This document shows positions 667 through 27,107 of a DNA stretch of 64,000 nucleotides, in pieces. Both the position numbers and the translations under genes were made by a program. The stretch lies in IMG/VR virus record IMGVR_UViG_3300021255_000105; one strand, written 5' to 3'. The notes beneath the pieces are model-generated. The model was not told the origin of the DNA. It made no database searches and saw nothing but the letters and a program-made list of their open reading frames with translations. The stretch's first letter is position 1. Each line of letters starts with the position of its first letter. The DNA is from an uncultured virus (IMG/VR IMGVR_UViG_3300021255_000105) (taxonomy: Duplodnaviria > Heunggongvirae > Uroviricota > Caudoviricetes).

Positions 667-1049
667 CAGAACAGCCTCCCCTGAAACGGCCCGCCGTATC
701 TTATTTTGCGTTGGCGTTCGATACTTTCACAAACGCCCATGATTGCCTCGGCCCGTCCGCGTAGCGAGTCCTCGTAGTCTTTAAGCTCGTCCTCGCTTTC
801 GGCAACGTAGTAGCCCTTACTGGTAGCAATCAGGCACGGGACTAAATCATTTTGGCGAATATGGTTAATGATTTTTCTTATACGCGCTGGCCCGGGTCGT
901 ATTTCCACCGGGCAGGCGTCTGCTATTTGCTGGTTAAATACCGCGTTTTCGCGCCCGTAAGCGAGTTTCAGCGTTGGAATGATAAATTCCATTGCCCGAA
1001 GCTCAACGTCGCTTAAAGGGGCTGTTTCTTGTGAAAATCCGCTTAACAT
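666..1049 (-). CDS. hypothetical protein, possible winged-helix DNA-binding protein
   Basis: 127-aa ORF, IRKIINHIRQ..LIATSKGYY pattern; start carries the TTTGAGTT-ATG motif. Confidence 0.55.
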   Translation of the reverse strand: MLSGFSQETAPLSDVELRAMEFIIPTLKLAYGRENAVFNQQIADACPVEIRPGPARIRKIINHIRQNDLVPCLIATSKGYYVAESEDELKDYEDSLRGRAEAIMGVCESIERQRKIRYGGPFQGRLF

Positions 1050-1104
1050 AACTCAAAGTTTTAAAGTGGTAGCCGGAGGCGGTATCACCCGCGACCGGCT
1101 ATTG

Positions 1105-5518: not shown

Positions 5519-6050
5519 TCGTTGATTTTGTGGATTCCAGCGGCGCAAAATCGTACCACCCGCGGATTGAGCCTATCTTCTGCCCGCGCGGGACTTTCTC
5601 AATACGGGGAGCCCGTTTCGTTTCCGGGGTGTAGTAGGCAATCAGATTCTTTTTATCGACAATGTAACCGAGGCGTTCAAGGCGGTTTCGCTGAAAGAGC
5701 CTCGCCCTCGGCTCGCTGGTGTAGTGCCGCCCCTTTTGCGCGGGTAACATGCCCCACCGAATACGCATCTTGTCTATATCGTACTGCTTTTTCAGTGTGG
5801 CCTCGCGTTTGGCGTAGGATTCGGGGGTGTTAATCCGTTTTCCGTACCCGCCCTTTATTGCAATCTCGCGGCACTGACGCGCAATAAACTCTTTTGACTT
5901 GTGCCAGCCGTGTTTCTCTGCCCGGCTTTTAATCGTCCACTTGGAAAGCCCCAAAGCCTCGGCAATCTCGGCGTTAGATTCGTTGGGGTAATGCTGGGCG
6001 ATATAGTCAAGCTGCTCTTTGTTAAGGTGCTTGGATTTTGCCTTCTTCAT
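5514..6050 (-). CDS. HTH DNA-binding protein
   Basis: SNAEIAEALGLSKWTIKSRA helix-turn-helix; perfect start motif. Confidence 0.7.
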   Translation of the reverse strand: MKKAKSKHLNKEQLDYIAQHYPNESNAEIAEALGLSKWTIKSRAEKHGWHKSKEFIARQCREIAIKGGYGKRINTPESYAKREATLKKQYDIDKMRIRWGMLPAQKGRHYTSEPRARLFQRNRLERLGYIVDKKNLIAYYTPETKRAPRIEKVPRGQKIGSIRGWYDFAPLESTKSTI

Positions 6051-6136
6051 AACTCAAAGATTTGTAAAAGCCTCCCTGCATTTCGCAACGCAAGGGAGGC
6101 GGATTGTTTTGTCATAAAGGCCCCGCATTGGGGTTG

Positions 6137-7588: not shown

Positions 7589-8043
7589 TGGGTTTTAATT
7601 AGAAAATGAGAACCGGCAACAAGGAACCGCCCCTCGTCCCGGTTGTTCTATTCACGCCCGCATCTATTTGTCGCCGACCTTGCCGACGCATGATAATCGA
7701 GTACTTTGCGTGCGTTAAATATTTGTCCCTATCCGCTACCTTGTAGCTCGTAGTAGTTTTGTCGTTTCTTTCGCTGATTTGCTTCTATTATTTTCCGGGT
7801 ATGCCTCACGCCCTACCTTTTGACTTCCCAAACATATCTTGTCGTCTTGCTTGGGTTTCGCCCCGAAGAAGGATTGACTACCTCCAAAGGGATTTCTTTC
7901 GGACTCGGTTTCCCCGACCACGCGATTATACGCAAGGCGCGGTAATTAAGCTGAAACACGCCTGCGTGCCCGTTTTTGGCCCGGGCTGGCCTTCAGACTT
8001 GTCAAATAACTCAAAGATTGATTGAAAAAAGTAGGTTACTTAC

Positions 8044-8187: not shown

Positions 8188-8257
8188 ACTTTTTAGAGAA
8201 AATCGACAAATTTTTTGGAAAATTTCGAAGCCGCCTACTCAAAACAAACTTTGAGTT

Positions 8258-8593
8258 ATGGATAACAACATTCAAAAACGGCTTCAGGAGGCCATAGAAG
8301 GCCTCTGCGAAGGAAACAAGTCAGAATTTTGCCGACGCATCGGAAAGGACGTATCAGCCCTAAAAGACATTCTTGGAGAAAAGCACAGCGCACCGGGGTA
8401 TGCCCTTTTGTTTGCAATCCTGTCCTCCGATTTGGGAATTTCCCCTAACTGGCTCATGCTTGGAGAGGGTCCCATGCTTTCGGGAAATAACCCCGCACCC
8501 GCCGGAAACGACGTGCATCACAACGTAGTAATAATTGGAAATCTTGGCGACCTGAAAGAAGTTGTCGCCGAGGCTATCCGCGAAAACAGATAG
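8258..8593 (+). CDS. XRE-type HTH repressor candidate (no peptidase domain)
   Basis: NKSEFCRRIG HTH and ISPNWLMLGEGPM motif typical of phage CI N-termini. Confidence 0.75.
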   Translation: MDNNIQKRLQEAIEGLCEGNKSEFCRRIGKDVSALKDILGEKHSAPGYALLFAILSSDLGISPNWLMLGEGPMLSGNNPAPAGNDVHHNVVIIGNLGDLKEVVAEAIRENR

Positions 8594-11077: not shown

Positions 11078-11329
11078 TTACTTTTCCTCGTAAAGTGGCG
11101 TTGTGGGATTCAACGCGCCGGTATCGGTCCTGACGTAGAGGGGCCGCTCGGTGTAGAGCCCTGCGTCCCACATTACGCCCACCCAGATTCGACAGTCGCG
11201 GGAGCTTATGAAGTCGGACGGGTGCTGCCTCCCGTCAATGCTGATACGCCACTTTTTGTTGTTCCCGGTTTCGGGATAGCAGATAATGGCCTTCTGCGGT
11301 ACAGGTGTTGTTGCTTTTGCTTTTGGCAT
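11078..11329 (-). CDS. hypothetical protein
   Basis: 83-aa ORF with start motif. Confidence 0.6.
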   Translation of the reverse strand: MPKAKATTPVPQKAIICYPETGNNKKWRISIDGRQHPSDFISSRDCRIWVGVMWDAGLYTERPLYVRTDTGALNPTTPLYEEK

Positions 11330-11350
11330 AACTCAAAGATTGATTAGAGA

Positions 11351-12181
11351 TTAGGAAAAAAACGCCATAGCGGCGCTGGAAAGCCCTTCGTTTGAGGGTA
11401 TGATATACCGCGCCGTAATAGCGCTGGAAGAGTGCTGGAGTACGCGGGAGATTTCCTCTGTCGCCACCCCGCGCCGGTTAAGGCATGTTGCCATGCTGAT
11501 TCGGGCCGAGTGTGACGTGATAAACTCATATTTAGGCCCCTTCAGTTCTTTGCCGCCTTTGAGGACTATCACCTCGTCGTTAATTCCAGCCTTCTTGCAA
11601 AGTTCGCGGATAGCCTCGTTATAGCACTTTGGCGTAACTTTGTACTCCGGGTGTTCGGCCACCCATGCGATTCTGGCCTCGAGTCCCGGCTTCAGCGGGA
11701 CCACCCCGGCCTTCTTTGTTTTTTGGGCCACGAATCTGATAACGCCCTCCGAAATGTTTTCGGTGGTCAGGTTCATGGCGTCGCCCACGCGGAGGCCCGT
11801 GTAGGCGCAGATAAGAAACACATTCTTAACATACTCTTGCCGGGGCGTGTGCGTCCTCGTTTCGGAAAGCATGTTGAGCTCGGTTTCCGTCAGATAGGTT
11901 TTCATCGGCTTTTGATTCTTGCATGAAAGAATCTTCTGCCAGCCCTTCGGCAGCTCCACGTCCTCGCAGTAGCGGTTAAAGAGCGCTTTTGCGTAGGCCA
12001 TGACCGTCTTTGCGGTTGAGGGTGCAACGGCCTCGGTTAAATGGTCGTGAAACTCATAAAGCGCGGAGCGGGTAATGTCGTTCCACTGGTAAATACCCGC
12101 CGCGTTCAAGTGCTTGCGGAGGGAGGCCCCCGCCGCGCCTTTGTTCTGCATCTTGTCGATTGCTTCTTGTAATGTTCTCAT
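11351..12181 (-). CDS. second tyrosine recombinase (276 aa, no arm-binding domain)
   Basis: YTGLRVGD, QKT, SHSAR, LQHSS, ARY: full R-K-H-R-H-Y set. Confidence 0.9.
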   Translation of the reverse strand: MRTLQEAIDKMQNKGAAGASLRKHLNAAGIYQWNDITRSALYEFHDHLTEAVAPSTAKTVMAYAKALFNRYCEDVELPKGWQKILSCKNQKPMKTYLTETELNMLSETRTHTPRQEYVKNVFLICAYTGLRVGDAMNLTTENISEGVIRFVAQKTKKAGVVPLKPGLEARIAWVAEHPEYKVTPKCYNEAIRELCKKAGINDEVIVLKGGKELKGPKYEFITSHSARISMATCLNRRGVATEEISRVLQHSSSAITARYIIPSNEGLSSAAMAFFS

Positions 12182-12218
12182 AACTCAAAGATTTTTGATT
12201 TGGCGAACGATGAGGTTA

Positions 12219-12389
12219 TCACACCTCCTCGTCCAATGCTTTTTTCAAGTAGATTTTGGCTTTTTCTTTCGCAGACTCTCTATCGTTTGCTGTTAGGTCT
12301 GTGACGGCGACTTCGACTTTTCCGAATCGGAAGTAGACGTTAAAGTATGGCTTCCCGCCTTTGCTTTTTGAATATTTTTCTACGAACAT
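12219..12389 (-). CDS. small hypothetical protein (56 aa), not in ORF track
   Basis: MFVEKYSKSKGGKPYFNVYFRFGKVEV...; fills one cassette slot, stop codon lies in hairpin loop. Confidence 0.6.
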   Translation of the reverse strand: MFVEKYSKSKGGKPYFNVYFRFGKVEVAVTDLTANDRESAKEKAKIYLKKALDEEV

Positions 12390-12441
12390 AACTTATTGTT
12401 TTTGGTTTTTTTGATTTGGAGGGGGAAAGGGCGGTCGGGTC

Positions 12442-12630
12442 CTATCCCCTTTTATACGCCTTACATTTGTCCCGGTTTCGGTGCAGGTCCACGTTGTCGC
12501 CAATCGGTATCGGCCCGATTCGCGGCATGGCTACACACTCATAGCCTCGCACAATGTCAAGCTCGCAGTGTATGCAAGTCCAACAGCAGCGAAAGGAAAA
12601 ATCCTTGTCGGTGATTCGGTGTTTACTCAT
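12442..12630 (-). CDS. small Cys-rich protein
   Basis: CCWTCIHC..C..C; perfect start motif. Confidence 0.65.
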   Translation of the reverse strand: MSKHRITDKDFSFRCCWTCIHCELDIVRGYECVAMPRIGPIPIGDNVDLHRNRDKCKAYKRG

Positions 12631-12666
12631 AACTCAAAGATTTAAGATTAGAGAAGGAGGAGGCGG

Positions 12667-12825
12667 TCAAGCCTCGTCCTTCTTTTTGCGTTTAGGGGTC
12701 TTGAATCCGCAAGCGCCCCAAATTAGCATCGAGTCGCTATTGTAGCGTCCAATCTTGCACCCTTCTTTGGTGCGCCCGTCCCAATGCTCACACTTCCAGC
12801 AGGGCTCTCCTTTTTCCGGTTTCAT
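12667..12825 (-). CDS. small Cys-rich protein (52 aa), not in ORF track
   Basis: MKPEKGEPCWKCEHW...GC...AC; stop codon in hairpin loop. Confidence 0.6.
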   Translation of the reverse strand: MKPEKGEPCWKCEHWDGRTKEGCKIGRYNSDSMLIWGACGFKTPKRKKKDEA

Positions 12826-12884
12826 ATTCGTTAGATTTTAATGGTTTGGCGAGCCGGAGGCCGGTCAGGGCCTCCCGCCCGATA

Positions 12885-13139
12885 CTAATTACCCCCCCCG
12901 TTTTCCTCTTCCGGGTTCTTTTCGAGATACTCTCCAAGCCCGGCCTTCATCTTCTCTGCAAGCGCATTGAGGGAGCCCATGATTTTGTGGAAATCCTCCG
13001 CGAGCTTGCGCTCTTTCGGGTTGCTGGATTCCTCAAACTTCTTTGCGGCCGCTGCGGCTGGGATAGCCCTTGCCTTTTCGCGTAAAACGCGCTCGAAAAT
13101 CCAAAGGGCTTCGTTGGGTGTCAATTCTACTTTAATCAT
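12885..13139 (-). CDS. hypothetical protein
   Basis: 84-aa ORF with start motif. Confidence 0.65.
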   Translation of the reverse strand: MIKVELTPNEALWIFERVLREKARAIPAAAAAKKFEESSNPKERKLAEDFHKIMGSLNALAEKMKAGLGEYLEKNPEEENGGGN

Positions 13140-13209
13140 AACTCAAAAATTTAAAAGTGAAACATAGGTGTTTGGAAGAAGGCGGGAGGTATCAGCCCCC
13201 GCCCCCTTT

Positions 13210-13410
13210 TTACTTTTCGTACTCTTTTAGGATTTCCCGCGTTTTGTCCTCCAGTTCCAAACCGAAGGTAGCGGAGAGATAAAAGAGCTCGCGGACGTGC
13301 CCTTTGGCGCGTTCGGTGTTGAGCAGACCGGCGGCAACCATATTGACCGTTCCGTCAAGGTGCTCCTCGGCATACATTTTCAGATTTTCCTTTGTGACTT
13401 CTTTTGCCAT
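13210..13410 (-). CDS. hypothetical protein
   Basis: 66-aa ORF in array. Confidence 0.6.
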   Translation of the reverse strand: MAKEVTKENLKMYAEEHLDGTVNMVAAGLLNTERAKGHVRELFYLSATFGLELEDKTREILKEYEK

Positions 13411-13416
13411 AACATT

Positions 13417-13614
13417 CTAATTTTTAATAATTCTAAATTTGTCTATTTCCGGGACAACAGCAAGCGAGCCCCAAGTGCCGTGGAGCTGGCCGATTCCGTC
13501 AATCATCTGGACCACGCCCTCGCGCCCGTTGTAAGCCCGAGCCTGCTCGTCCTTTCCGTTTCCGTCGTCCATTCGGACAATGCGAATCTTGTCGCCGACT
13601 TTTACTTTACTCAT
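13417..13614 (-). CDS. DUF4314-like protein
   Basis: VGDKIRIVRMDD..GREGVVQMIDGIGQLHGTWGSLAV..D.F pattern. Confidence 0.7.
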   Translation of the reverse strand: MSKVKVGDKIRIVRMDDGNGKDEQARAYNGREGVVQMIDGIGQLHGTWGSLAVVPEIDKFRIIKN

Positions 13615-13810
13615 GGCTTTCCTCCTCAATTTTTGCAATCTTTGTAAGCTCGCGCAGAATCAAATTACAACGGTTGATAGTCAGCTCAATGCTCCGCGTT
13701 GCTTCCTGTACCTGAATCTTGTTGCTGGCGGCCCGGAGGTCGCTGATAGTCTGGATTACGCACTCGCCGATAAGCTCAAAATCGTTTTTGGAGAAAGTAA
13801 GATTATACAT
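13607..13810 (-). CDS. hypothetical protein
   Basis: 67-aa ORF with start motif. Confidence 0.6.
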   Translation of the reverse strand: MYNLTFSKNDFELIGECVIQTISDLRAASNKIQVQEATRSIELTINRCNLILRELTKIAKIEEESHE

Positions 13811-13869
13811 AACTCATTGATTTAATTGGTTTTTGAGCGCGGGAAAGGTATCACCCCGTCCCGCCCTTT

Positions 13870-14115
13870 TCAGTACGGAAATGTGCAACCGGCCCGCACC
13901 CATTTTTCCACGTCCTCGGCGGCTTCGAATAAAGTCCGTACCATACTTGAAAGAACGTTATCACCCAGCTTAAAAGTAACGAGGAGCGCCCCTTCGGGAT
14001 TGTGGCTCACCACGACGGACTCGCCGTTTCGCGGATTGACCCATGCGGCCCTAATGTTGTGTTGTTCGCAGGCAAAGTAGATTTGCCGTGCAAGGTTGTC
14101 TTTTGTCTTACTCAT
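13870..14115 (-). CDS. hypothetical protein
   Basis: 81-aa ORF with start motif. Confidence 0.65.
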   Translation of the reverse strand: MSKTKDNLARQIYFACEQHNIRAAWVNPRNGESVVVSHNPEGALLVTFKLGDNVLSSMVRTLFEAAEDVEKWVRAGCTFPY

Positions 14116-14170
14116 AACTCAAAGTGTTTAAGATTGGAGAAGGCGGGCCGCAATCAAGCCCCCGCCTTCT

Positions 14171-14647
14171 TTAAGCGTTCGGATTCATCTGCCGGAGGAT
14201 TTTTTTCATGGCCGCTTCACACTGGCTCGCCACTTTCAGGCACAGGGCCGATTGGTCTTTGTCGCGGTCGTTTTCCAGCGCCCGGGCGGTCGCTTTCAGG
14301 CTTGCAGATTGGTCTGCAAGGGTGGCGGCAATTACCGTCATGTCCTCTTTTGTCAGCTCAACTTTCCGCTCTCGCGTGTCCGGCGTTCCTTCCCAGTCGG
14401 CAACCCATTCGATTCTTAAAAGTTCGTCCGGCTCGCGCATGTCGGGGTCCCCCCGCCAGATTTCCTCGGCGGCGGCTTTGATTGTCCCGCGTTCGCAGTC
14501 GATAATTACTGAATCCGTCCCGGCGGGGATATGCGCCGCCAGATTGCCGCAGAAAACAAGCTCATTCACAAGGTCGTGCAGCAGGCAGTAAGCCATTTGA
14601 TACTCCCGGCTCCCGGGGTCCTCAATTTTGATAGATAGCTTATACAT
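14171..14647 (-). CDS. hypothetical protein
   Basis: 158-aa ORF with start motif. Confidence 0.65.
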   Translation of the reverse strand: MYKLSIKIEDPGSREYQMAYCLLHDLVNELVFCGNLAAHIPAGTDSVIIDCERGTIKAAAEEIWRGDPDMREPDELLRIEWVADWEGTPDTRERKVELTKEDMTVIAATLADQSASLKATARALENDRDKDQSALCLKVASQCEAAMKKILRQMNPNA

Positions 14648-14704
14648 AACTCTTTAAGATTTAATTGGTTTGGAGAAGGTGGGCGGTATCACCCGCCCGC
14701 CCTC

Positions 14705-15100
14705 TTAATCATCAACGTAAAAAAGAATATCCTCCGGGACGAAATCGAGGTCGTTGTAGTCAATCCCCTCGTCCCAGCAGTACTCTTGCATCTGGTCGCT
14801 TATCTGGTCGGCGAGTCTTGCGTCGGCCTGCAAAAGCGAGCATCGGTTCCGGTCGATAGCGCCCAGCGCCCGGCTCGTTCTTTCGTCCCAGCCTTCGATA
14901 TTGTCCTTGCATCGGAGCCATACGGCCATCCGGGGTTCGTCCTTTTTGAGTTCGTCGAACATTTCCGGGGTCAGCTTTGAAAGGTCCAGCTTCACGCTCT
15001 CGCCGGTGCGGTAGCTCTTAATTTCGAGCACCGGCCCGTCAAATGAGAAAACCTTGCTTCCGTTAATGATTTTGATTGCGTTTTCGTAGGTCTGTTTCAT
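14705..15100 (-). CDS. hypothetical acidic protein
   Basis: 131-aa ORF, D/E-rich C-terminus, perfect start motif. Confidence 0.65.
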   Translation of the reverse strand: MKQTYENAIKIINGSKVFSFDGPVLEIKSYRTGESVKLDLSKLTPEMFDELKKDEPRMAVWLRCKDNIEGWDERTSRALGAIDRNRCSLLQADARLADQISDQMQEYCWDEGIDYNDLDFVPEDILFYVDD

Positions 15101-15160
15101 AACTCAAAGATTTAAGATTTTAGCAAGCGCGGGAGGTATCACCCGCCCGCGCCCGTGGCG

Positions 15161-15553
15161 CTATCCGATGCTATAAAAGTGCTCTATGTGGTCGCAAAGT
15201 GTTATGTATTTTTCATCTTTGCTCCCGTCGCCGTATCCGGCCCTTTTCCAGTCGAAAAACTCGCGTGAAAGGTTATCGGCGGCGATGCACTCGCCATAGC
15301 TCATGCTTTCTTGCTCGCCGCCAAGAATAAACGTGGCGCAGGCTTTTGCAACGAGCATAGCCCTATCGAGCTCGGTGTTGCTTATTTTGCCGTCCGGGGC
15401 GTTGGTCGTAAACCGCACCGATTCCCCGAGGCCCCGCGTGATTGTGATTGCGCGGTCGAGGCCGCTGTTCAGGCAAACGTCGATACTGCGCTCGTTGTTT
15501 TTCTCCGCATCAAAGCAGAAGAGGATAGCAGTTACCATGATTTTCTTGCTCAT
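15161..15553 (-). CDS. hypothetical protein
   Basis: 130-aa ORF, perfect start motif. Confidence 0.65.
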   Translation of the reverse strand: MSKKIMVTAILFCFDAEKNNERSIDVCLNSGLDRAITITRGLGESVRFTTNAPDGKISNTELDRAMLVAKACATFILGGEQESMSYGECIAADNLSREFFDWKRAGYGDGSKDEKYITLCDHIEHFYSIG

Positions 15554-15599
15554 AACTCAAAGATTTTTAAAGATTTAACTCGGCGAAGGTGGGCGCGTA

Positions 15600-16034
15600 T
15601 TAGGCCCCCGCCTCCATTTCATTGAGCTCGTCTATTGCATCGTCGATTATATCCAGCGGCTTGTAATAGTGGCTCAAAGCGTTTTCCCGCGTTGCATCTG
15701 CAAAGGACTCCGGCCCGGGTATATAGCGCACGATTTCCGCGCGTGTCAGTTCCAGGGCCGCAACGGCCTCGGCGGGTTCGATATATTCCCCTTCCCGGCC
15801 CTTTTGAATCAGCCCGGAAAGGTAACTTCTATATCCCCCCGTCCCGGCCTTTTCAAGCGCCCTTAAAGCGCGAAACAAGATAGAACGGACTTGCACCCCG
15901 TCCCGGTCTTTTTTCTCGTTTTTAGCAAGTTTTAGGGCCGTTTCCCGGGCTTCAGTATTCCGGGCGCTGCGCATAATCAGCGCGAACGGCAGCGCAAGTA
16001 GGCATGTAATAGGGATTAACCAAAAAGGACTCAT
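15600..16034 (-). CDS. membrane-anchored hypothetical protein
   Basis: MSPFWLIPITCLLALPFALIM N-terminal TM; stop TAA in hairpin loop. Confidence 0.6.
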   Translation of the reverse strand: MSPFWLIPITCLLALPFALIMRSARNTEARETALKLAKNEKKDRDGVQVRSILFRALRALEKAGTGGYRSYLSGLIQKGREGEYIEPAEAVAALELTRAEIVRYIPGPESFADATRENALSHYYKPLDIIDDAIDELNEMEAGA

Positions 16035-16113
16035 ATTTTTTAGATTTAATTTGGAGGCCGGGTGGAGCATCGCCCCCGCCCGGCTTGATTATGAAAAACA
16101 ATGCAAATCGCTC

Positions 16114-16185
16114 TTATTCGGAGCGTTTTTCGGCCATGAGATTGACAAAAATTGCAATCAGAATCATAGGTACAAAAATAGTCAT
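16114..16185 (-). CDS. 23-aa hydrophobic micropeptide
   Basis: MTIFVPMILIAIFVNLMAEKRSE; perfect start motif and upstream hairpin. Confidence 0.55.
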   Translation of the reverse strand: MTIFVPMILIAIFVNLMAEKRSE

Positions 16186-16272
16186 AACTCAAAGATTTAA
16201 AGATTTTTAGAGAGCGGAAAGGGTATCACCCCTCCCCGTCCTTTTGTTTTACCCCCTCCCCCTTTTCTTTTT

Positions 16273-16755
16273 TTAGTCGGCCCAGTGGAACATGTAAGCG
16301 CAGGCCTCGTCTTTTTTCGCGGCCTCCTCCTCGGTGTCATCTTCGCTTTTGGCGTACTTGCTATCGAACATATCCAGCGCTTTGTAGTACAAATCGGCGT
16401 AAAGCTCGGACAGCCCGTGCTCGTTATTTGCGTGCCAGAACCACGACAAATGATTCAGGCTCATAATAAGCTCGGTGAAGTACTTGTAATCGGACAGCCA
16501 GCTGCGCGAGGCGCGGTTGTAGGTGTCTTTTATTGCGTTGTCCCCGAAGGGCTCGGCCAGCGCGAAATCCGATACAAACGTGGTAAAGCGCTTATATCCG
16601 TTATTTTCGCTCATAACCCGCTCAAAGATACGCTCCATAGCGGCCCCGTAGATGAACGGATTGCTCCGGGCCTGCGTGAGAAGTTTCTTGACTCCCGGGC
16701 GCATGGCGCGGGCATAAGGGTTGCTCGTTTTGGTGGCGGTTGCAGTTGTACTCAT
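16273..16755 (-). CDS. conserved phage/MGE hypothetical protein
   Basis: TTF..DF..AE.FG..AIKDTY.RA...W..DYKY.TEL.M.LNH pattern; perfect start motif. Confidence 0.7.
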   Translation of the reverse strand: MSTTATATKTSNPYARAMRPGVKKLLTQARSNPFIYGAAMERIFERVMSENNGYKRFTTFVSDFALAEPFGDNAIKDTYNRASRSWLSDYKYFTELIMSLNHLSWFWHANNEHGLSELYADLYYKALDMFDSKYAKSEDDTEEEAAKKDEACAYMFHWAD

Positions 16756-16831
16756 AACTCAAAGATTTTTAATAGTTAGACATTTGGCAGGCGTGGTCCC
16801 GGTCAGGGGGCCTCGCCCGTTTCAATCCTTG

Positions 16832-17098
16832 TTAGTCCTGAATGGCGACATATCGCCACTCGTAGCGGTACTGCCCCCGGGCACCCGGGGTTTTGGTGTA
16901 CGTGTTTTTGCAGAGGAGCGCGTCGCAGTCGGGGTTTATCTTCATTAGCTTATACCCGGCCCGGACGAGCATTTTAACCGCATCTTGAAAATTACTCGGT
17001 ATCGAGTGGAAGGTGGGCTTGTATGAGCAAATGACATAGCGCCCGCCCTTTTTACGGTCTGCGCCCTCGGTGAGGAAGGATTTGTTTTTCAGATTCAT
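16832..17098 (-). CDS. hypothetical protein
   Basis: 88-aa ORF with start motif. Confidence 0.6.
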   Translation of the reverse strand: MNLKNKSFLTEGADRKKGGRYVICSYKPTFHSIPSNFQDAVKMLVRAGYKLMKINPDCDALLCKNTYTKTPGARGQYRYEWRYVAIQD

Positions 17099-17155
17099 AA
17101 CTCGAAAGATTTAAAAGTTTTTGAACCCCGGGCGCGGTATCAGCGCCCCCGGGAT

Positions 17156-17974
17156 TTAGTCAGATAGTTTGCTCATTATAGCGGCGGTATTAAGCCCGCG
17201 CAGCTCATAAAACGATACTATCTTTTTTAGGTGCAGCCCGGCGTTTTTTGCGGCGGTATCGACGAGCCCGGCGTCGCTTATGGGTGAACCATGACCGATT
17301 GAAAAATAGAGGTTTTTCAAGCCCGGGGCCGTTTCAACGAACCGCAAAAAATGCCTTCTTAACATTGACGGGTTTACAAGTGGATAGGCCGTTTTTTTAA
17401 TGTCAAGATACTGCGCCGAGTCTTTGATTCTTACAAACATATTGCAAGTATCATAATGCCCGCCCCGGGCGCTGCATTTAGAACCGAAATAGACGTAAAG
17501 ATTAACTCTATATCCGTTTTTCTCGAGTCCCATGAGCGCCCCCATGAGGGCGGCGGCGGTATCTTTCAGCTCGTCGGCGCTTATATCATACGAGGCGCTG
17601 CCGTTATAACATACATTCAATACTTTACTATCTTTATATGTTACTTTTTCGGTGCGTATCATGGATTTAGGAAGGCCCATGAGGGCGGCCGGGACGCTCG
17701 CCGCGCCCCCGCAAACGGAGGCATATCGGCGTGTCCTGCGCCCCTCTCCGAGGGTTTTCACGCGGGCCGCAGTTGCCGTTTTCAGGGCGGCGGCGCTTTT
17801 TTCGTCCCCGTCCCGGAGCAGCACGTTTGCGGCTTCGTATGATTCCGTCCCGGTGAATTTTTCGGAGCCCGTAAAAGCGCCGCAATCGCGGCCCTTAAAA
17901 ACTTGATTTTCCGGGGCCGTATCAAGATACGCCCGGAGCCCGTCTAAATTGCTGAAGGTTTTTGTAATATCCAT
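17156..17974 (-). CDS. vWA-like partner of the AAA ATPase
   Basis: 272 aa; SVPAALMGLPKSM, LEKNGYRVNLY, NPSMLRR; adjacent to MoxR-type ATPase. Confidence 0.55.
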   Translation of the reverse strand: MDITKTFSNLDGLRAYLDTAPENQVFKGRDCGAFTGSEKFTGTESYEAANVLLRDGDEKSAAALKTATAARVKTLGEGRRTRRYASVCGGAASVPAALMGLPKSMIRTEKVTYKDSKVLNVCYNGSASYDISADELKDTAAALMGALMGLEKNGYRVNLYVYFGSKCSARGGHYDTCNMFVRIKDSAQYLDIKKTAYPLVNPSMLRRHFLRFVETAPGLKNLYFSIGHGSPISDAGLVDTAAKNAGLHLKKIVSFYELRGLNTAAIMSKLSD

Positions 17975-18032
17975 AACTCAAAAATTTAAGATTAGAACCC
18001 CGCCCCCGGTCCCCCGGGCGGCAGGATTTATG

Positions 18033-19160
18033 CTACATTGCAAGGGCAAAAACATTGTTTTTGTGAGTGAGCCCGGCGCGAAGTATGTTTATTTCGTCCC
18101 GGTCATAACCGCCCGTAATTGCAAGGGATACGGCCTCGGCGGTATCAATACCCGCCTTCATAAACTTTGCGAGGCGGGATATGTTACGATACCCGAGGAC
18201 GATATGCACCCCGGCCGCGGCGGCGCTTTTTCTCATGTCATAAATGAACTCGAGAATATCGGACCGCCCCCCGGCGAGGTTTTTCTCAATCCCGGCGCAA
18301 TAGTCGAACTGCATCGGGGTGAACCTATTAAGGGAGGAGGCGTCGATTACGCTGCGCCCGGTGTACATTTCATCAGCACCCCGGCCGCAGGTATTTCCGG
18401 CCGCGATACAATGAAAATCTTTGTGCATTTTTACGCGGCCCCCGGGGAAGGTGAAATATCCGTTAGCGAGGGCGGCGTTCAATGTTACCAACGTATCCGG
18501 GCAGGAGGCGTCGAGTTCATCAAGCATGAAAACGCCGCCCCGGGTGAAGGCCCGGTAAAATTCCGTTTCATGATAGCGCCCGGAGGCGTCAATAAAGCCC
18601 GTCAATTTAAATTCATCGGTTACGGAATTTTGATAATAAAATTCTAAACCGAGGGCGCGGGCTATTTGCTCACAAACGTAATTTTTCCCGGAGCCCGCGG
18701 GGCCGTAAAGATAGACGGACTCACCGAGCTGCATGAGCTGCAGCAGGCGGGCAAATTTATCATGTTTTACCTCGTTATCTTTGCGGGGTGCGGGTACGGG
18801 TGCGGGGGCCGGGACGGGTTCCGGCATGGGTGCGGGAGCGGGCTCGGGTGCAGGCGTATCTTTGCGGGCGCGGCGGGTTATGTTTTCGCGTATCTTTGCA
18901 TAAGCCTCGGACCCCTCAAAACATACATTTATAAGTTTTTCAGGACCGGACTCGGCGAGCATTGTAGCGGCGGCAGTTTCAGTCAGAACCCCGGAAAAAT
19001 CCCCGAGGCGATACATGAACTTCCAGCCGTACATGTTACCGAGTTTTGTGTTATTCCATGCAAGGGTATGAGAACCCAAAAACATAGAACCGGACTCGCA
19101 AATGATAGCGCTTTTTTTGCCGTTTACATAGCATTTAAGAATGTTTGCATTGTGTTTCAT
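18033..19160 (-). CDS. MoxR/CbbQ-like AAA+ ATPase
   Basis: Walker A GPAGSGKN, Walker B FMLDELD, AAGNT, DASSLNRF; Pro-Ala linker after N-domain. Confidence 0.88.
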   Translation of the reverse strand: MKHNANILKCYVNGKKSAIICESGSMFLGSHTLAWNNTKLGNMYGWKFMYRLGDFSGVLTETAAATMLAESGPEKLINVCFEGSEAYAKIRENITRRARKDTPAPEPAPAPMPEPVPAPAPVPAPRKDNEVKHDKFARLLQLMQLGESVYLYGPAGSGKNYVCEQIARALGLEFYYQNSVTDEFKLTGFIDASGRYHETEFYRAFTRGGVFMLDELDASCPDTLVTLNAALANGYFTFPGGRVKMHKDFHCIAAGNTCGRGADEMYTGRSVIDASSLNRFTPMQFDYCAGIEKNLAGGRSDILEFIYDMRKSAAAAGVHIVLGYRNISRLAKFMKAGIDTAEAVSLAITGGYDRDEINILRAGLTHKNNVFALAM

Positions 19161-19591
19161 AACTCATAAAGATTTAATTGTTTAACATGGTACTTCGGCG
19201 GGGTATCAATCCCGGCAAAATAAGCCCGGGCGCCGTATTGCACCCGGGGCGGCAAAAACAATTAAATCTAACTTTTTGAGTTATCGGAAAACGTTTCAAA
19301 GTTTATCCCTGCAGGCAATTGCTCCGTTTTTCTTTCGGGATTGTGCGTATAAAAACGCCCTGCATGATTTTCCCTTCCTCATCGGAATGTCATTTACTTT
19401 GTTTTCCTGTATTGTCAAAGAACTTCCCCGGCGGCGCGGGCTCTTGCATCATGGACTTTTACGGGGTTTTCAAGTCCGAGCCCTTCGGCATTGTCTTGCA
19501 TTGATTAGTGTTATAGGATTAAACCGATATTGTTATATATCCCGTCACCTTCGACGGCGTTTTAACTAATCAATGTTTCAAAGAACTGATG

Positions 19592-24317: not shown

Positions 24318-24358
24318 TCCGGGGCTGAAGGTTTATCCTGAAACCCGGACCAACGAGA

Positions 24359-24637
24359 GGGACGCATGTTCATTTTTTTCGATAGCGTAGTGCAGAGGTT
24401 AGCACGCCGGATTCACCCCGGAGGTCGTCGGTTCAAATCCGACCGCTATTATCATGAGCGCGTTTTTCGCTCGGCATTTAAACGATTTGGAGAATCGTTT
24501 GCACTTGAAATGCAACAAAAATGGCTCCGAACCCAAAACAATACAACCGCTCCGGCGGTATTGACGTTGCCTTTGTCCTTGACGGGCTCGGAGGTCCTTG
24601 CCTTTATCCTTGTCGTCGCCTTTGTAACATGCGTCCC
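24359..24637 (+). ncRNA. putative structured RNA closed by a 12-bp stem, containing a tRNA-like domain (24381-24451)
   Basis: GGGACGCATGTT (24359) pairs with AACATGCGTCCC (24626); several internal hairpins; 6-nt-periodic tracts. Confidence 0.7.
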
Positions 24638-24662
24638 AATCGGTCCAAACTTATAAAACTTT

Positions 24663-24910: not shown

Positions 24911-25111
24911 ATGGACCAAGAAAGAGCGGGCCAAATCAGCGCCCTTTACCAAAAGGCGACAACCCTTAACAGGCGGATTAAGGATTATCAAGTGAAGGTT
25001 GGCTGTGTCGGTACAACAACAATCACGGTTGATTGCTCGATGCTCCCGGCTATTATCCAGCTCACGGAGGCGCAACTCGCCGAGGTTGAAGCCAAGATTG
25101 ATGAAATGTAA
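24911..25111 (+). CDS. hypothetical protein
   Basis: 66-aa ORF. Confidence 0.55.
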   Translation: MDQERAGQISALYQKATTLNRRIKDYQVKVGCVGTTTITVDCSMLPAIIQLTEAQLAEVEAKIDEM

Positions 25112-25130
25112 CAAAAATGTTTCATAACCC

Positions 25131-25598
25131 ATGAAGATACGAAAAGACAATACGGTTAAACTCGAGCGCGGCGAGTACCGTGCCGGAAACTTCTTTTTCA
25201 AGATAGAAGATGCGCATATTAAGATTCAGGACCTCAACGGCCTTATGTCCTTTCGTGTTGGCCGTAGAATGGCCGTCGGAGTATGGCTTGAAAATACGCT
25301 TAAACGAGGCGAGGAGGGCGTGGAAACGCTTAAAACCTATGCCGCGACGGCGTGGACTTTTCTCGCCCTTGTGCCGGACCAAGAGGCGATTTCCGGAATA
25401 CTGGAGCTCACCAAAGACGCCATGCAGCGCCACCCCGATTGGTACGGCTACAAGCCCAGCGATGATGACAAGGTAAACGACGAAGCCGCCGAGGAAGTAA
25501 AGGAACTGACCGAGCTTGAAAAGAGCCTTGCTGAAATGCCTTCCGGTGAGAAGCCCAAGCGTAAGAGAAAGACCACCCATGCCGCCAAAGGCGAATAG
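25131..25598 (+). CDS. hypothetical protein
   Basis: 155-aa ORF. Confidence 0.65.
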   Translation: MKIRKDNTVKLERGEYRAGNFFFKIEDAHIKIQDLNGLMSFRVGRRMAVGVWLENTLKRGEEGVETLKTYAATAWTFLALVPDQEAISGILELTKDAMQRHPDWYGYKPSDDDKVNDEAAEEVKELTELEKSLAEMPSGEKPKRKRKTTHAAKGE

Positions 25599-25817
25599 TA
25601 CGTTTCACTATTGCGGCTACAAACACCACGTCGTAATGACCTTTGAGGATTGCGGCGAGGTGTTTGTGGTCGTGAAGTACTACGGAAAGCGCAAACGCTG
25701 GTGGCATTACGAAGTGTGGTCGCTTTTTGAGTATAGCCTTAAAACCGGGAAAAATGAAAACTAACGTTTTAAAGGCCCGCCCGGGGCTCCGTTATCGTAT
25801 CGGAGGGCTTTACTTAT

Positions 25818-25882
25818 GTAAAAAGCCTCCCGTTTCCGAGAGGCCAAATCTTTGAGTTATTTGTAGGCTTGCGCCTAACAGG
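25818..25882 (-). ncRNA. putative small antisense RNA
   Basis: Promoter TTTG N21 TATTTTTG (25917-25885); hairpin TAGGC-GCAA-GCCTA; seed AATAACTCAAAGATTTG; terminator GCCTCTCG-GAAA-CGGGAGGC-TTTTT. Confidence 0.75.
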
Positions 25883-25977
25883 TGCAAAAATAATGAATTT
25901 TTGGCTTTACGCGCAAAAAATTGGCAAAAAGTTCACTTTATTTGCGAAATAAGCAATAAGACACAGCGGTTATTGGT

Positions 25978-26370
25978 TTAAATTGGCTCGGTAGCCTTTT
26001 TTATCTCGCGGAGCTGGATTCCGTGGAAGTAGAGCATCATCTTTCGCTTAATCGGGTACTTTTCATCTGGAAAGCCCTTGCAATCCTCAACTACTAACTG
26101 GCCGTCCTTCTCGTAGACATAATCGGCCACATAAGTTACCGCCCGCTCGACAAGTTGCTGCACAACCTTTTCTTTGGTCTTTAATTTCTTGACTACGGGC
26201 CGATATTGGGCCGGGAGTAACGGGAACTCAACTTGCTTGCGAAGGTCGCTTATTTCGCCCTTTTGGGCCGCTTCTTTGAGTATCAGCCAACGGTTATATT
26301 CCAGCTTTGACGCAAACTCCCCTTCCGGGGTCACTATCTTTTTGTTTCCGTATTTTCTACGTGGTATCAT
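25978..26370 (-). CDS. DUF1064-family PD-(D/E)XK nuclease
   Basis: KYGNKK, FASKLE, YVADYVY, VVEDCKG motifs. Confidence 0.85.
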   Translation of the reverse strand: MIPRRKYGNKKIVTPEGEFASKLEYNRWLILKEAAQKGEISDLRKQVEFPLLPAQYRPVVKKLKTKEKVVQQLVERAVTYVADYVYEKDGQLVVEDCKGFPDEKYPIKRKMMLYFHGIQLREIKKATEPI

Positions 26371-27107
26371 ACTTCCATAGGTTCAAAGAAATACTCCGGG
26401 TAGCACTGGCAACGAGGGTGAGGGCGCTCAAACGGAGTGGAGATAGGGATTTTCTTTCCGCAAAGCGAGTCGCACTCCGGGCAGTCGAAGGACGAGCCGC
26501 GGTGACGGATATAGTAAACCGCCCCTTGCGCCATAGCATCCACCCACTCGGCGTAGCGGGCCGAGTCTATAATCAGGTCCGCGCCGATTAGCGAGAGCTG
26601 GTTGTAGATATTGAAACTATATCCCGGCCCCCAGCCCATGCGCTTTATCCCGGCCTCTCGCCAAAGCGGGCAAAGAAACGGGTTATTGATATAGCGAGAA
26701 ATCAGCACCCGGAGATACCCTTGCGTGTAGTTTTTTGCAAGGGCGAGCCCCACCCAGACAGAAAGGAGGTCCAAAAGGTGCTCCCCGGCAAGGTCAAAGC
26801 TCATACCGGCATACTTTTCGGAAAGGGCCGTTTCAAAGGCCACCTCCTCGTCAGCATAGTCCAGCGAGTCGGTAATCAGCGTATAGGCAATCTTCCGCGC
26901 GTCCTCAATGCATCCGTCCGACAGCGCAACGCATTGGCGCAGGGCCTCTTTGTAGAGCGTTTCGTCGGCGTCAAAAGAGAAATCCGCGCCGAGGTGCTTA
27001 TACTTCCACGCCAGCTCCAGAAGAGCCGCCAGTGCGTCGTCATATCGCTTTTTCGACGCACCGGCGAACTCGTTTAGCGAGGCGTTTATCTTGTGGTGGC
27101 TAAGCAT
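26367..27107 (-). CDS. head morphogenesis protein (MuF/SPP1 gp7-like)
   Basis: C-terminal CPECDSLCG..PHPRCQC; downstream of portal. Confidence 0.7.
   Translation of the reverse strand: MLSHHKINASLNEFAGASKKRYDDALAALLELAWKYKHLGADFSFDADETLYKEALRQCVALSDGCIEDARKIAYTLITDSLDYADEEVAFETALSEKYAGMSFDLAGEHLLDLLSVWVGLALAKNYTQGYLRVLISRYINNPFLCPLWREAGIKRMGWGPGYSFNIYNQLSLIGADLIIDSARYAEWVDAMAQGAVYYIRHRGSSFDCPECDSLCGKKIPISTPFERPHPRCQCYPEYFFEPMEV

What the first reader, a model, noticed from the sequence alone, without database searches (positions are those of the whole stretch)
25818..25917. Stand-alone sRNA antisense to the shared start-codon motif of ~18 phage genes
Seen: a minus-strand unit with a canonical Bacteroidetes promoter (TTTG N21 TATTTTTG), a GNRA hairpin (TAGGC-GCAA-GCCTA), an unpaired stretch AATAACTCAAAGATTTG and a GNRA terminator with T-tail, about 65 nt, no ORF. 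The unpaired stretch is the exact complement of AAATCTTTGAGTTAT(G). That motif covers the ATG of genes starting at 6050, 12181, 12630, 15100, 15553, 16185 and 16755 (15/15 nt). Near matches cover the starts at 1049, 5334, 8258 (repressor), 11329, 13139, 13810, 14115, 14647, 17098, 17974 and 19160. I did not see the motif at structural genes. Inference: one trans-acting RNA could silence a whole regulon by occluding a standardised translation-initiation region. It would act as an early-to-late switch or an immunity RNA. It is loosely analogous to P1 c4 or P4 CI RNA but has far more targets.
Basis: partly seen in the sequence, partly recalled or inferred. Interest (0 to 1): 0.93.

Follow-up and report, generated by a model that had tools for sequence, protein, structure and literature searches.

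The report
Phage small RNA matching shared gene starts
A temperate Bacteroidota phage carries a tiny RNA gene whose exposed middle is the mirror image of a standard tag placed on the start codons of about 17 of its early genes, and related phages change tag and RNA together, which points to one RNA controlling a whole block of genes.

Summary
The 16-nt motif has 20 matches at ≤3 mismatches against 0.73 expected. Seven are exact, all at ATGs of minus-strand genes. One inverted copy lies at 25846-25861. Around it, on the minus strand, sit a full-consensus Bacteroidota promoter (one of 4 in 64 kb), a GCAA hairpin, 16 unpaired anti-motif bases and a GAAA terminator with T-tail (z = -4.44).

Comparative evidence favours a real trans-acting antisense sRNA gene. 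I identified the unit in 24 of 41 portal-related viral contigs. There are 18 sequence-distinct versions with one shared architecture. All 18 fold better on the proposed RNA strand. Lineages with different start motifs carry matching seeds.

In the window, 16 of 222 ORF starts pair at ≤ -13 kcal/mol, and all 16 lie in the 1-20 kb early block. The longest complement, 17 nt, is in the leader of the leftward early operon.

No expression data could be obtained, and co-variation alone does not exclude a DNA-level module. Repression is inferred, most likely as immunity or early shut-off. The closest analogue is the unexplained start-associated sequences of Cluster K mycobacteriophages. No Rfam family matches.

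The parts
25885..25917 (-). Bacteroidota-type promoter TTTG-N21-TATTTTTG of the unit
   Evidence: one of 4 full-consensus sites in 64 kb. An equivalent promoter (TTTG/TTG, N18-22, nAnnTTTG, mostly TATCTTTG or TACCTTTG) precedes the unit in the relatives.
25864..25877 (-). 5' hairpin TAGGC-GCAA-GCCTA (GNRA loop)
   Evidence: In relatives the position is held by hairpins of different sequence, for example GACGAC/GTTGTC, AGCGCA/TGCGCT, CGGAC/GTCCG, GGCGCA/TGCGCC, GGACGC/GCGTTC and CTTATG/CATAAG.
25846..25861 (-). Unpaired anti-motif (seed) AATAACTCAAAGATTT. The plus strand reads AAATCTTTGAGTTATT.
   Evidence: 1 mismatch to the motif, plus strand. Unpaired in both MFE and centroid structures. 15-17 nt perfect complements exist elsewhere in the window.
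25820..25845 (-). Intrinsic terminator GGCCTCTCG-GAAA-CGGGAGGCT with T-tail
   Evidence: It contains a U.G wobble valid only on this strand. Compensatory changes are seen in relatives (4 of 6 alignable pairs).
8003..8019 (-). ATG-less motif copy in the leader of the leftward early transcript. This is the longest perfect complement (17 nt) to the unit RNA in the window.
   Evidence: duplex -21.4 kcal/mol. It lies downstream of the canonical promoter at 8187->8157. The copy is conserved in G002.
19270..19285 (+). ATG-less motif copy (AACTTTTTGAGTTATC) in the divergent region ahead of the rightward operon
   Evidence: duplex -14.4 kcal/mol. A similar ...TTGAGTTATC copy sits in the equivalent place in G016.
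6048..6063 (-). Exact start-motif copy at the ATG of the HNH-like gene 5514-6050 (best duplex, 16-nt complement)
11327..17987 (-). Block of small accessory or early genes. Their starts carry the motif at 11329, 12181, 12630, 13139, 13810, 14115, 14647, 15100, 15553, 16185, 16755, 17098 and 17974. Each is usually preceded by a GC-rich hairpin.
   Evidence: Apart from a tyrosine recombinase (11351-12181) and a DUF7192 protein (17156-17974), the products have no family.
1047..1062 (-). Start-motif copy (1 mismatch) at gene 666-1049
8245..8260 (+). Start-motif copy (2 mismatches) at plus-strand gene 8258-8593
   Evidence: The gene has no family.
19145..19175 (-). Bulged motif copy at the start (19160) of the AAA-ATPase gene 18033-19160
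   Evidence: -14.6 kcal/mol.

Best explanation
The unit is a phage-encoded, independently transcribed small RNA of about 61-66 nt. I infer a 5' end near 25880-25884 and a 3' end at 25820-25824, on the minus strand.

A 5' GNRA hairpin and a terminator hairpin frame a 16-19 nt single-stranded stretch. That stretch base-pairs with a standardised 'address tag' covering positions about -13 to +2 of the start codon of roughly 17 early or accessory genes. It also pairs with ATG-less copies of the tag in the leaders of the leftward early operon and of the rightward operon.

Pairing across the AUG should block 30S binding, because Bacteroidota initiation has no Shine-Dalgarno anchor and depends on an open start region. 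Pairing in the leader may also cause termination or cleavage. One RNA would then shut down the whole early and accessory block.

The promoter is a host-type consensus, and in this phage the unit also lies in the read-through path of the terminase-portal-resolvase operon. The RNA is therefore expected in lysogens and late in infection. I think its most likely role is RNA-based immunity and early-gene shut-off. The lineage-specific seed/tag pairs would then define specificity groups.

Shown here: the anatomy, conservation, strand bias, seed-target complementarity and co-variation. Inferred: transcription, repression, timing and the immunity role.
For: 1. Non-chance complementarity. 20 motif matches against 0.73 expected. 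The unit RNA has 15-17 nt perfect complements at 9 other places, all on the minus strand.
2. Clean target set. 16 of 222 ORF starts pair at <= -13 kcal/mol, and the next best is -11.9. All 16 are among the 77 starts in 1-20 kb, and 0 are among the 145 elsewhere. Shuffled seeds give a mean of 0.7 and a maximum of 3.
3. Transcription-unit signals. It has one of 4 full-consensus promoters in the window. The others lie in the divergent control region (two) and upstream of a tRNA pair. The fold z-score is -4.44.
4. Specificity of the signature. A generic search for promoter + 45-100 nt + strong hairpin + T-run over L001-L061 and the window returned 19 rows. 18 of them are this unit family.
5. Conservation. 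The unit was identified in 24 of 41 portal-related contigs: 24 of 31 with portal identity >=62% and 0 of 10 with <=58%. An exact-seed scan found one further contig.
6. Same architecture from different sequences. 18 distinct units all fold as 5' hairpin, unpaired anti-start stretch and terminator. In L006 the 5' hairpin is replaced while seed and terminator stay 42/42 identical.
7. Strand bias. 18 of 18 units are more stable on the proposed RNA strand, with mean difference -5.6 kcal/mol and 34 G.U pairs against 7.
8. Co-variation of seed with lineage-specific start motif, classes A to D.
9. Orientation rule. The unit is always co-directional with the tagged genes, even where it is inverted relative to portal (L009, L026, L028).
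10. Co-occurrence. The near-complete genomes G006-G010 and the window have both tag and unit. The complete G011 has neither.
11. The tag is in the 5'UTR and is not the promoter. In G007 a canonical promoter lies 27 nt upstream of a tagged XRE-type gene.
Against: - No transcript evidence. No RNA run holds the stretch, and the RNA-run contigs that were laid do not cover the unit. This is uninformative either way.
- Co-variation would also arise if all copies, including the inverted one, were recognised at DNA level by one factor or were homogenised by recombination.
- For class B (G001, a 38%-complete contig) the energy matrix does not separate own from foreign seeds: 3 against 1-6. There the match is seen only by eye.
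- G008 has the unit but only about 6 tagged starts.
- Class A2 seeds (G007, G008) match their own targets over only about 11-12 nt.
- The strand-bias test is partly biased, because units were selected for a hairpin on that strand. The 18 units are also not phylogenetically independent.
- MAFFT/RNAalifold recovers only the terminator.
- In 7 of 31 closer relatives no unit was found. Two of those contigs end before the site, and the others are short or partial.
- Predicted accessibility of the tag in mRNA context is only moderate, 0.27-0.67.
- The host is unknown and no chaperone is known.
Confidence: 0.7

Rival explanations
1. The tag is a recognition site for a phage or host protein. That protein could be a stoperator-like DNA-binding repressor or a RegA-like RNA-binding translational repressor. 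The copy at 25846-25861 would then be one more site that happens to sit between convergent operons, and the small RNA, if made, would be incidental.
For: - Asymmetric repeated sites in one orientation, with rare reverse copies, are known for protein-bound stoperators. This is mentioned in the Pope 2011 passages.
- ATG-less copies exist in control regions.
- All copies in a genome would co-vary under this model too.
- Upstream hairpins often carry a shared (G/C)TGATAC-like loop that could bind a protein.
Against: - This model does not explain why the single inverted copy is always framed by a consensus promoter, a 5' hairpin and a terminator on the antisense strand in 18 sequence-distinct versions.
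- It does not explain why the hairpins are better on that strand in 18 of 18 units.
- It does not explain why the copy is always unpaired between the hairpins.
- The best-conserved part of the tag is the 9 nt abutting and including the ATG, in a fixed register. That fits RNA-level start-site control better than a DNA roadblock.
- No candidate regulator gene is linked to the unit.
Confidence: 0.12
2. The unit is only the shared terminator region of convergent operons, plus a decayed inverted duplicate of a hairpin-plus-tag module. It has no trans-acting function.
For: - On the plus strand the unit looks like the ordinary module, a hairpin followed by the tag, but with ATT instead of ATG.
- It sits exactly where the terminase-portal-resolvase operon and the plus-strand operon must terminate.
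- The ATG-less leader copy at 8005 shares the same ...GAGTTATTTG ending, which suggests duplication.
Against: - A decayed duplicate would not keep 42/42 identity in seed and terminator while its flanks and the 5' hairpin are replaced (L006).
- It would not track each lineage's own tag across classes A-D.
- It would not keep a consensus promoter at fixed distance.
- It would not persist when moved to the other strand relative to portal (L009, L026, L028).
- L008 even has two tandem units, each with its own promoter and terminator.
Confidence: 0.08
3. The RNA is real and pairs with the tags, but it activates or processes rather than represses. For example, it could guide duplex-specific cleavage that releases stable monocistronic mRNAs downstream of the hairpins, or protect start regions from a nuclease.
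For: - Each tagged gene is preceded by a strong hairpin ending 19-26 nt upstream of the ATG in 15 of 18 cases. That layout would suit processing into hairpin-capped units.
- Nothing here measures the sign of regulation.
Against: - The duplex covers the A and U of the start codon and about 13 nt upstream. That is the region a 30S subunit must occupy.
- Known sRNAs pairing there repress (general knowledge, not tested here).
- The tags are not predicted to be sequestered in inhibitory structures that pairing would open: accessibility is 0.27-0.67, and the hairpins lie upstream of the tag.
Confidence: 0.1

Closest known systems
Start-associated sequences (SAS/ESAS) of Cluster K mycobacteriophages (Pope et al. 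2011, PMC3203893, passages read; Adephagia 2024, PMC11373665, passages read; K4 survey 2025, PMC12699233, passages read)
   Same: - An asymmetric short motif lies within a few nt of the start codon of 13-19 non-structural genes.
- It has one orientation and a strong ATG preference.
- About half the copies have an upstream inverted repeat.
- There is a single reverse-orientated copy not at a gene start.
- In Anaya I confirmed 16 forward copies and 1 reverse copy. The reverse copy lies in a 385-bp gene-free gap, so the anti-SAS is on the gene-sense strand.
- Function is stated as unknown, with an 'RNA or protein' partner left open.
   Different: - SAS contains the Shine-Dalgarno core AGGAG. The tag here is AU-rich with no SD.
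- ESAS repeats are sequence-conserved and are proposed to hold SigA-like promoters. The hairpins here are GC-rich and variable in sequence.
- No antisense RNA has been proposed for SAS in the passages I read. My simple scan found no sigma-70 promoter at the reverse SAS, and the one terminator-like site in the scanned stretch lies about 110 nt upstream of it.
- The host phylum is different and there is no sequence homology.
P1/P7 c4 antisense immunity RNA (details recalled; only search listings seen)
   Same: A small phage antisense RNA whose unpaired loops pair with complementary sites on phage mRNA and block translation. Seed differences define heteroimmune types.
   Different: - c4 is processed from the same transcript as its targets and acts on two sites in one operon.
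- The unit here has its own promoter and terminator and about 19 dispersed targets.
- No Rfam match at gathering thresholds or at E<=10.
P4 CI immunity RNA (recalled, no paper read)
   Same: A small stable RNA confers immunity by pairing with repeated target sequences in the leader of the early operon. Here the longest complement (17 nt) is in the early-left leader.
   Different: - P4 CI is cut out of the leader transcript itself and causes premature termination.
- It has no regulon of start-codon sites.
- No homology was detected.
T4 RegA translational repressor (recalled, no paper read)
   Same: One regulator shuts off many early mRNAs by recognising a related sequence over their start codons.
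   Different: RegA is a protein with a loose consensus. Here the proposed regulator is an RNA with Watson-Crick specificity, and the target tag is nearly invariant.

Membership tests
Trans-acting base-pairing sRNA (generic definition) | Independent transcription unit with its own promoter and intrinsic terminator and no ORF | tested here: met
   In silico only. Full-consensus promoter, 1 of 4 in the window. Terminator and fold z = -4.44. No ORF of 50 aa or more. The same layout occurs in 18 distinct relatives.
Trans-acting base-pairing sRNA (generic definition) | A transcript of the predicted size is detected | not testable with these tools
   No RNA holder listed. The contigs that were laid do not cover the unit.
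Trans-acting base-pairing sRNA (generic definition) | Single-stranded seed complementary to target mRNAs at or near the start codon | tested here: met
   Seed unpaired in MFE and centroid and in all 18 relatives. 16 of 222 starts pair at <= -13 kcal/mol against 0.7 for shuffled seeds.
Trans-acting base-pairing sRNA (generic definition) | Seed and targets co-vary between relatives | tested here: met
   Classes A, C and D separate in the energy matrix. Class B is matched only by eye. The same pattern is also expected under a DNA-level model.
P1/P7 c4 antisense RNA (Rfam family) | Sequence and structure match to the curated covariance model | tested here: not met
   No Rfam hit in the window other than tRNAs. 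No hit at E<=10 in 25700-26000.
P1/P7 c4 antisense RNA (Rfam family) | Encoded upstream of, and co-transcribed with, its target operon and released by processing (recalled) | tested here: not met
   The unit has its own promoter and terminator. It lies 6-25 kb from its targets, in a convergent intergenic region.
P4 CI-type immunity RNA | Target sequence in the leader of the early operon (recalled) | tested here: met
   A 17-nt perfect complement at 8003-8019(-), downstream of the promoter at 8187->8157. The effect on termination is not testable here.
P4 CI-type immunity RNA | Homology to known CI or CI-like RNAs | tested here: not met
   No Rfam match of any kind.
Cluster K SAS/ESAS | Asymmetric motif within a few nt of start codons of non-structural genes, in one orientation | tested here: met
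   All strong sites lie in the early block and none at structural genes.
Cluster K SAS/ESAS | Motif contains the SD core and can pair with the 16S 3' end | tested here: not met
   The tag AAATCTTTGAGTTATG has no AGGAG-like core. Bacteroidetes lack SD use according to the abstracts of PMC7797042 and PMC6847099 (search listing).
Cluster K SAS/ESAS | A subset has a sequence-conserved 17-bp inverted repeat upstream | tested here: inconclusive
   15 of 18 targets have an upstream hairpin ending 19-26 nt before the ATG. The stems differ in sequence, and only the loops are similar.
Cluster K SAS/ESAS | A single reverse-orientated copy not associated with a gene start | tested here: met
   Window 25846-25861(+). 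The same holds in G006, G007, G009, G010 and G016. Anaya has 1 reverse copy of 17.
Cluster A stoperators | Sites bound by the immunity repressor and not tied to the start-codon register (recalled, plus a passage) | tested here: not met
   The tag keeps a fixed register with the ATG at 15 window starts (TGAGTT at -6..-1). Protein binding is not testable here.

The most novel reading that the evidence does not exclude
A whole lineage of temperate Bacteroidota siphoviruses runs its early and accessory genes on a shared RNA 'address tag'. One constitutively made sRNA of about 62 nt reads that tag to silence 10-20 genes and two operon leaders at once.

Tag and seed switch together between lineages, giving at least four specificity classes. 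These would form RNA-defined immunity groups. One relative (L008) carries two tandem sRNAs with different seeds.

The same logic, with the lone reverse-orientated copy acting as an antisense RNA gene, may be the missing explanation for the start-associated sequences of Cluster K mycobacteriophages, which have been unexplained since 2011.
Probability: 0.3. Interest if true: 0.9.

Novelty: new variant of a known kind. Interest (0 to 1): 0.8.

Why it matters
Phage antisense RNAs known so far act on one or two sites (c4, CI, sar, OOP; recalled). A single sRNA matched to a standardised start region on about 17 genes plus two leaders would be regulon-scale control by sequence addressing. It would also be an RNA-based way to define immunity specificity that can change by coordinated seed and tag substitution.

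It would be one of the first functional sRNAs proposed for phages of Bacteroidota, where translation starts without Shine-Dalgarno pairing and start-region openness is decisive.

It turns an old open question into a concrete test. SAS function in Cluster K phages is still stated as unknown in the 2024 and 2025 papers I read passages of. The test is to look for an RNA across the single reverse SAS.

The orthogonal seed/tag classes would also be ready-made parts for multiplexed translational control in Bacteroides engineering.

Tried and rejected
**Readings rejected**
- Tag as a -7 promoter box with leaderless mRNAs (AAtcTTTG resembles TAnnTTTG, with the ATG 5 nt after the G). Rejected for four reasons:
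  - Conservation is highest in the start-proximal TGAGTTATG, not in TTTG (copies 13808 and 5332 lose TTTG).
  - Class C and D tags (TGCCTTATG, TGCATTATG) mostly lack TTTG.
  - No -33 element lies at the right distance.
  - In G007 a canonical promoter sits 27 nt upstream of a tagged start.
- Link between the in-frame TGA of the tag and the phage tRNA with anticodon UCA. The TGA is in frame only in class A. Classes B-D have no in-frame stop.
- A 33-codon plus-strand ORF running into the unit. The sequence there is not conserved in L001 and L003.

**Tests that gave nothing usable**
- Expression. No RNA holder listed. Contigs of three RNA runs and one unclassified run were laid. The RNA-run contigs cover only 24177-24643 and 29299-29475, and none of the four runs covers the unit. 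This counts neither for nor against.
- blastn of 25000-27000 against named phages: no match.
- The window's own genome is not held.
- MAFFT plus RNAalifold on 18 units. The 5' hairpins are too divergent to align, and only 6 terminator pairs were recovered.
- K-mer matrix of seed complements. It is noisy, with a background of 3-12 sites, and was replaced by the duplex-energy matrix.
- A strict automated unit counter found only 10 of 41 contigs. It missed units already verified by eye, so the count was compiled from the individual calls instead.
- Anaya. A simple sigma-70 and terminator scan around the reverse SAS found no promoter and one weak terminator-like site about 110 nt upstream. The question stays unresolved.

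**Literature searches for a prior description**
Searches found none in the library searched. One search failed on a term-length rule and was re-sent with other terms.
Full report
**What the window is.** PHROG and Pfam scans show a temperate siphovirus-like phage of Bacteroidota type.
- Recombination genes: NinB, SSB and exonucleases, 1.6-4.8 kb, minus strand.
- Two tyrosine recombinases: 9171-10334 (+) and 11351-12181 (-).
- A run of small genes without any family: 11-19 kb, minus strand.
- Primase: 22109-23269 (+).
- A minus-strand late operon: TerL 28627-30279, portal 27100-28605, a 246-aa protein, and a Holliday-junction resolvase 25978-26370.
- Head and tail genes, a diversity-generating-type reverse transcriptase, and DnaB/DnaD at the right end.
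- Six tRNAs.
- No named phage matches by DNA, and no host genome is held.

The unit lies in the convergent gap between the plus-strand operon ending near 25764 and the resolvase stop at 25978.

**The observation.**
- Promoter TTTG-N21-TATTTTTG, 25917->25885.
- Hairpin TAGGC-GCAA-GCCTA, 25877-25864.
- 16 unpaired bases AATAACTCAAAGATTT, 25861-25846.
- GAAA-loop terminator and T-tail, 25845-25820.
- The 61-nt RNA folds at -23.8 kcal/mol, z = -4.44.
- Full-consensus Bacteroidota promoters are rare in the window: 4 against 0.88 expected. The other three sit at plausible promoter positions, two in the divergent control region near 8.1 kb and one upstream of a tRNA pair.
- The motif has 20 matches at <=3 mismatches against 0.73 expected. 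Seven are exact, all at ATGs of minus-strand genes.
- By duplex energy, 16 of 222 ORF starts pair with the seed at <= -13 kcal/mol and the next best is -11.9. All 16 are among the 77 starts in 1-20 kb, and none are among the 145 elsewhere.
- An 18th target start (16185) has an ORF shorter than 50 aa and was outside that count. The site at 5334 is weak (-10.7).

- Nearly every tagged start is preceded by a GC-rich hairpin. In 15 of 18 cases it ends 19-26 nt upstream of the ATG, often with a (G/C)TGATAC-like loop.
- On the plus strand the unit looks like the same hairpin-plus-tag module with ATT in place of ATG. The unit is therefore an inverted module copy, which raised the rival that it is a DNA-level element.
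- ATG-less copies exist at 8005-8020(-) and 19270-19285(+).
- The 8005 copy lies in the leader downstream of the canonical leftward promoter (8187->8157). It is the longest perfect complement to the unit RNA in the window: 17 nt, -21.4 kcal/mol.
- The 8258 gene has no recognisable family, so 'repressor' is unsupported. The only Cro/C1-type HTH protein (21218-21532) carries no tag.

**Relatives.** An exact-seed scan and two portal-based scans of viral contigs gave 43 contigs in all. I fetched 19 of them whole.
- Among the 41 contigs I identified the unit in 24. That is 24 of the 31 with portal identity >=62% and 0 of the 10 with <=58%.
- The 7 misses among closer relatives are two contigs that end before the site and five short or partial ones.
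- A signature search that knows nothing about the seed (promoter + 45-100 nt + strong hairpin + T-run) returned 19 rows over L001-L061 and the window. 18 of them are this unit.
- Eighteen sequence-distinct units all fold the same way: a 5' hairpin (mostly GNRA-type tetraloops), an unpaired anti-start stretch of 17-27 nt, then a terminator with U-tail. The stems are built from many different sequences.
- In L006 the 5' hairpin is a different sequence while seed and terminator are 42/42 identical to the window.
- In L009, L026 and L028 the unit sits on the other strand relative to portal, but it stays co-directional with tagged genes.
- L008 has two tandem units with different seeds.

**Co-variation.** Different lineages use different tags, and each carries an inverted copy that matches its own tag.

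| Class | Tag | Genomes | Unit seed or position |
|---|---|---|---|
| A | ...AAATCTTTGAGTTATG | window, G002, G006, G016 | window seed as above |
| A2 | ...CC(T)TTTTGAGTTATG | G007, G008, G019/G020 | A2 seeds |
| B | AAATCTTTTTAG[CT][CT]ATG | G001 | ACATAGCTAAAAAGATTTGG |
| C | CACTAA(A)T...TGCCTTATG | G004, G010 | CATAAGGCA...TTAGTGA |
| D | CCTCTAAATTTTGCATTATG | G009 | GTAATGCAAAATTTAGAGGTG |

The duplex-energy matrix over all ORF starts gives:

| Genomes searched | Starts hit by own-class seeds | Starts hit by other seeds | Shuffled own seed (mean) |
|---|---|---|---|
| Class A (window, G006, G007) | 10-20 | 1-4 (class C/D seeds) | 0.6-4.3 |
| Class C (G004, G010) | 11-14 | 0-4 | about 2 |
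| Class D (G009) | 15 | 0-7 | 5.4 |

Class B is not separated by this matrix (3 own against 1-6 foreign, on a 38%-complete contig). It rests on the alignment by eye.

Presence and absence agree. The near-complete genomes G006-G010 and the window have both tag and unit. The complete G011 and the other distant relatives have neither.

**RNA gene or DNA module.** Co-variation is expected under both readings, so I looked for strand-specific signals.
- All 18 units are more stable on the proposed RNA strand than on its complement, by a mean of 5.6 kcal/mol. They carry 34 G.U pairs against 7. Two caveats apply: selection required a hairpin on that strand, and the units are related to each other.
- The terminator wobble moves between relatives but always stays a G.U on that strand.
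- 4 of the 6 alignable terminator pairs show compensatory changes.
- A consensus promoter at a fixed distance, a structure-conserved but sequence-free 5' hairpin and a U-tail are not explained by a protein-site or decayed-duplicate model.
- The tag is not itself a promoter. Its best-conserved part abuts the ATG, classes C and D mostly lack TTTG, and in G007 a canonical promoter lies 27 nt upstream of a tagged start.

**Mechanism proposed.** The sRNA pairs with positions about -13 to +2 of each tagged start: 15-16 bp, -13 to -21.5 kcal/mol with the 20-nt seed.
- In a phylum that initiates without Shine-Dalgarno pairing and relies on an open start region (abstracts of PMC7797042 and PMC6847099, seen in the listing), this should block initiation.
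- Pairing with the ATG-less copies in the two operon leaders could add termination or cleavage, as recalled for P4 CI.
- The promoter is of host type. In this phage the late operon has no terminator before the unit, so late transcripts should also carry the anti-tag in their 3' end.
- The diversification into matched seed/tag classes among close relatives is the pattern expected of an immunity determinant. I therefore favour lysogenic silencing and superinfection immunity, with late shut-off of early genes as a second role. All of this is inference.

**Comparison with known systems.**
- There is no Rfam match at curated thresholds or at E<=10, so the unit is not a member of the c4 or any other described RNA family.
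- Functionally it resembles c4 and P4 CI (recalled), but it has its own transcription unit and an order of magnitude more targets.
- The closest anatomical parallel is the SAS/ESAS system of Cluster K mycobacteriophages. [quoted passage not shown] Its partner is left open as 'RNA or protein', and its function is still called unknown or unverified in 2024-2025.
- In Anaya I confirmed 16 forward copies and 1 reverse copy. The reverse one lies in a 385-bp gene-free gap, so the anti-SAS is on the gene-sense strand. A simple scan found no promoter at it, and the one terminator-like site lies about 110 nt upstream. The extension is a lead, not a result.
- Three library searches found no description of the Bacteroidota system.

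**Verdict.** The interpretation as a trans-acting antisense sRNA with a regulon of standardised start regions is supported by conservation, architecture, strand bias and seed/tag co-variation. Transcription, the sign of regulation and the biological role remain to be shown. It is a new variant of a known kind (phage antisense regulators) with unusual scale and evolvable specificity.

Noticed in passing
window 24381-24451 (+): A phage tRNA with anticodon UCA, which reads UGA. ARAGORN labels it tRNA-SeC and Rfam scores it as tRNA at 57 bits. It may be an opal suppressor. Among the RNA-run contigs laid on 22-30 kb, the only sizeable cover was 24177-24643, over and beside this tRNA. Whether the phage recodes UGA was not examined.
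   Followed up: partly
window 8044-8187: Two full-consensus Bacteroidota promoters face each other, 8044-8074 (+) and 8187-8157 (-). Their transcripts would overlap by about 70 nt. This looks like a face-to-face genetic switch. The rightward leader contains a hairpin plus T-run (8080-8123).
   Followed up: partly
window 11-19 kb, upstream of each tagged start: GC-rich hairpins (-15 to -28 kcal/mol) end 19-26 nt upstream of the ATG in 15 of 18 tagged genes. Many have a (G/C)TGATAC-like loop, and most lack a U-tract. Their role (3'-end stabiliser, attenuator or protein site) is unexplained. Relatives show the same pattern.
   Followed up: partly
L008 4222-4440 (+): Two tandem units, each with its own TACCTTTG promoter and terminator. 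Their seeds differ in the start-proximal half and share the distal TTTAAGGGTT. The contig is too short to see the targets.
   Followed up: no
L102 (Mycobacterium phage Anaya) 39871-39883 (-): The single reverse-orientated SAS lies in a 385-bp gene-free gap between gp96 and gp97. A rightward transcript would therefore carry the anti-SAS. This is a possible parallel to the unit, but no promoter was found by a simple scan.
   Followed up: partly
window 51859-53052 (+) and 41371-49167 (+): A reverse transcriptase of the diversity-generating-retroelement type lies a few kb downstream of a 2598-aa tail-fibre-like protein. Template and variable repeats were not searched for.
   Followed up: no
G005 (L020) 1070-1286: Nine tandem 27-bp repeats (GATAGGTTCAAGCGGA[GT]ATT[AC]TGC...) in a distant relative that lacks the tag/unit system. 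They may be iterons.
   Followed up: no
G004 15246-15263 (= L011 8616-8631) and L044 3844-3859: In class C units the anti-start CATAAG forms the 3' arm of the 5' hairpin, paired with CTTATG. The hairpin's 5' arm therefore mimics the target start. The same is seen in L035. It may be a built-in gate on seed access.
   Followed up: no
window 9171-10334 (+) and 11351-12181 (-): Two tyrosine-recombinase genes lie within 3 kb. The second (276 aa) carries the start tag and sits at the head of the accessory-gene block.
   Followed up: no
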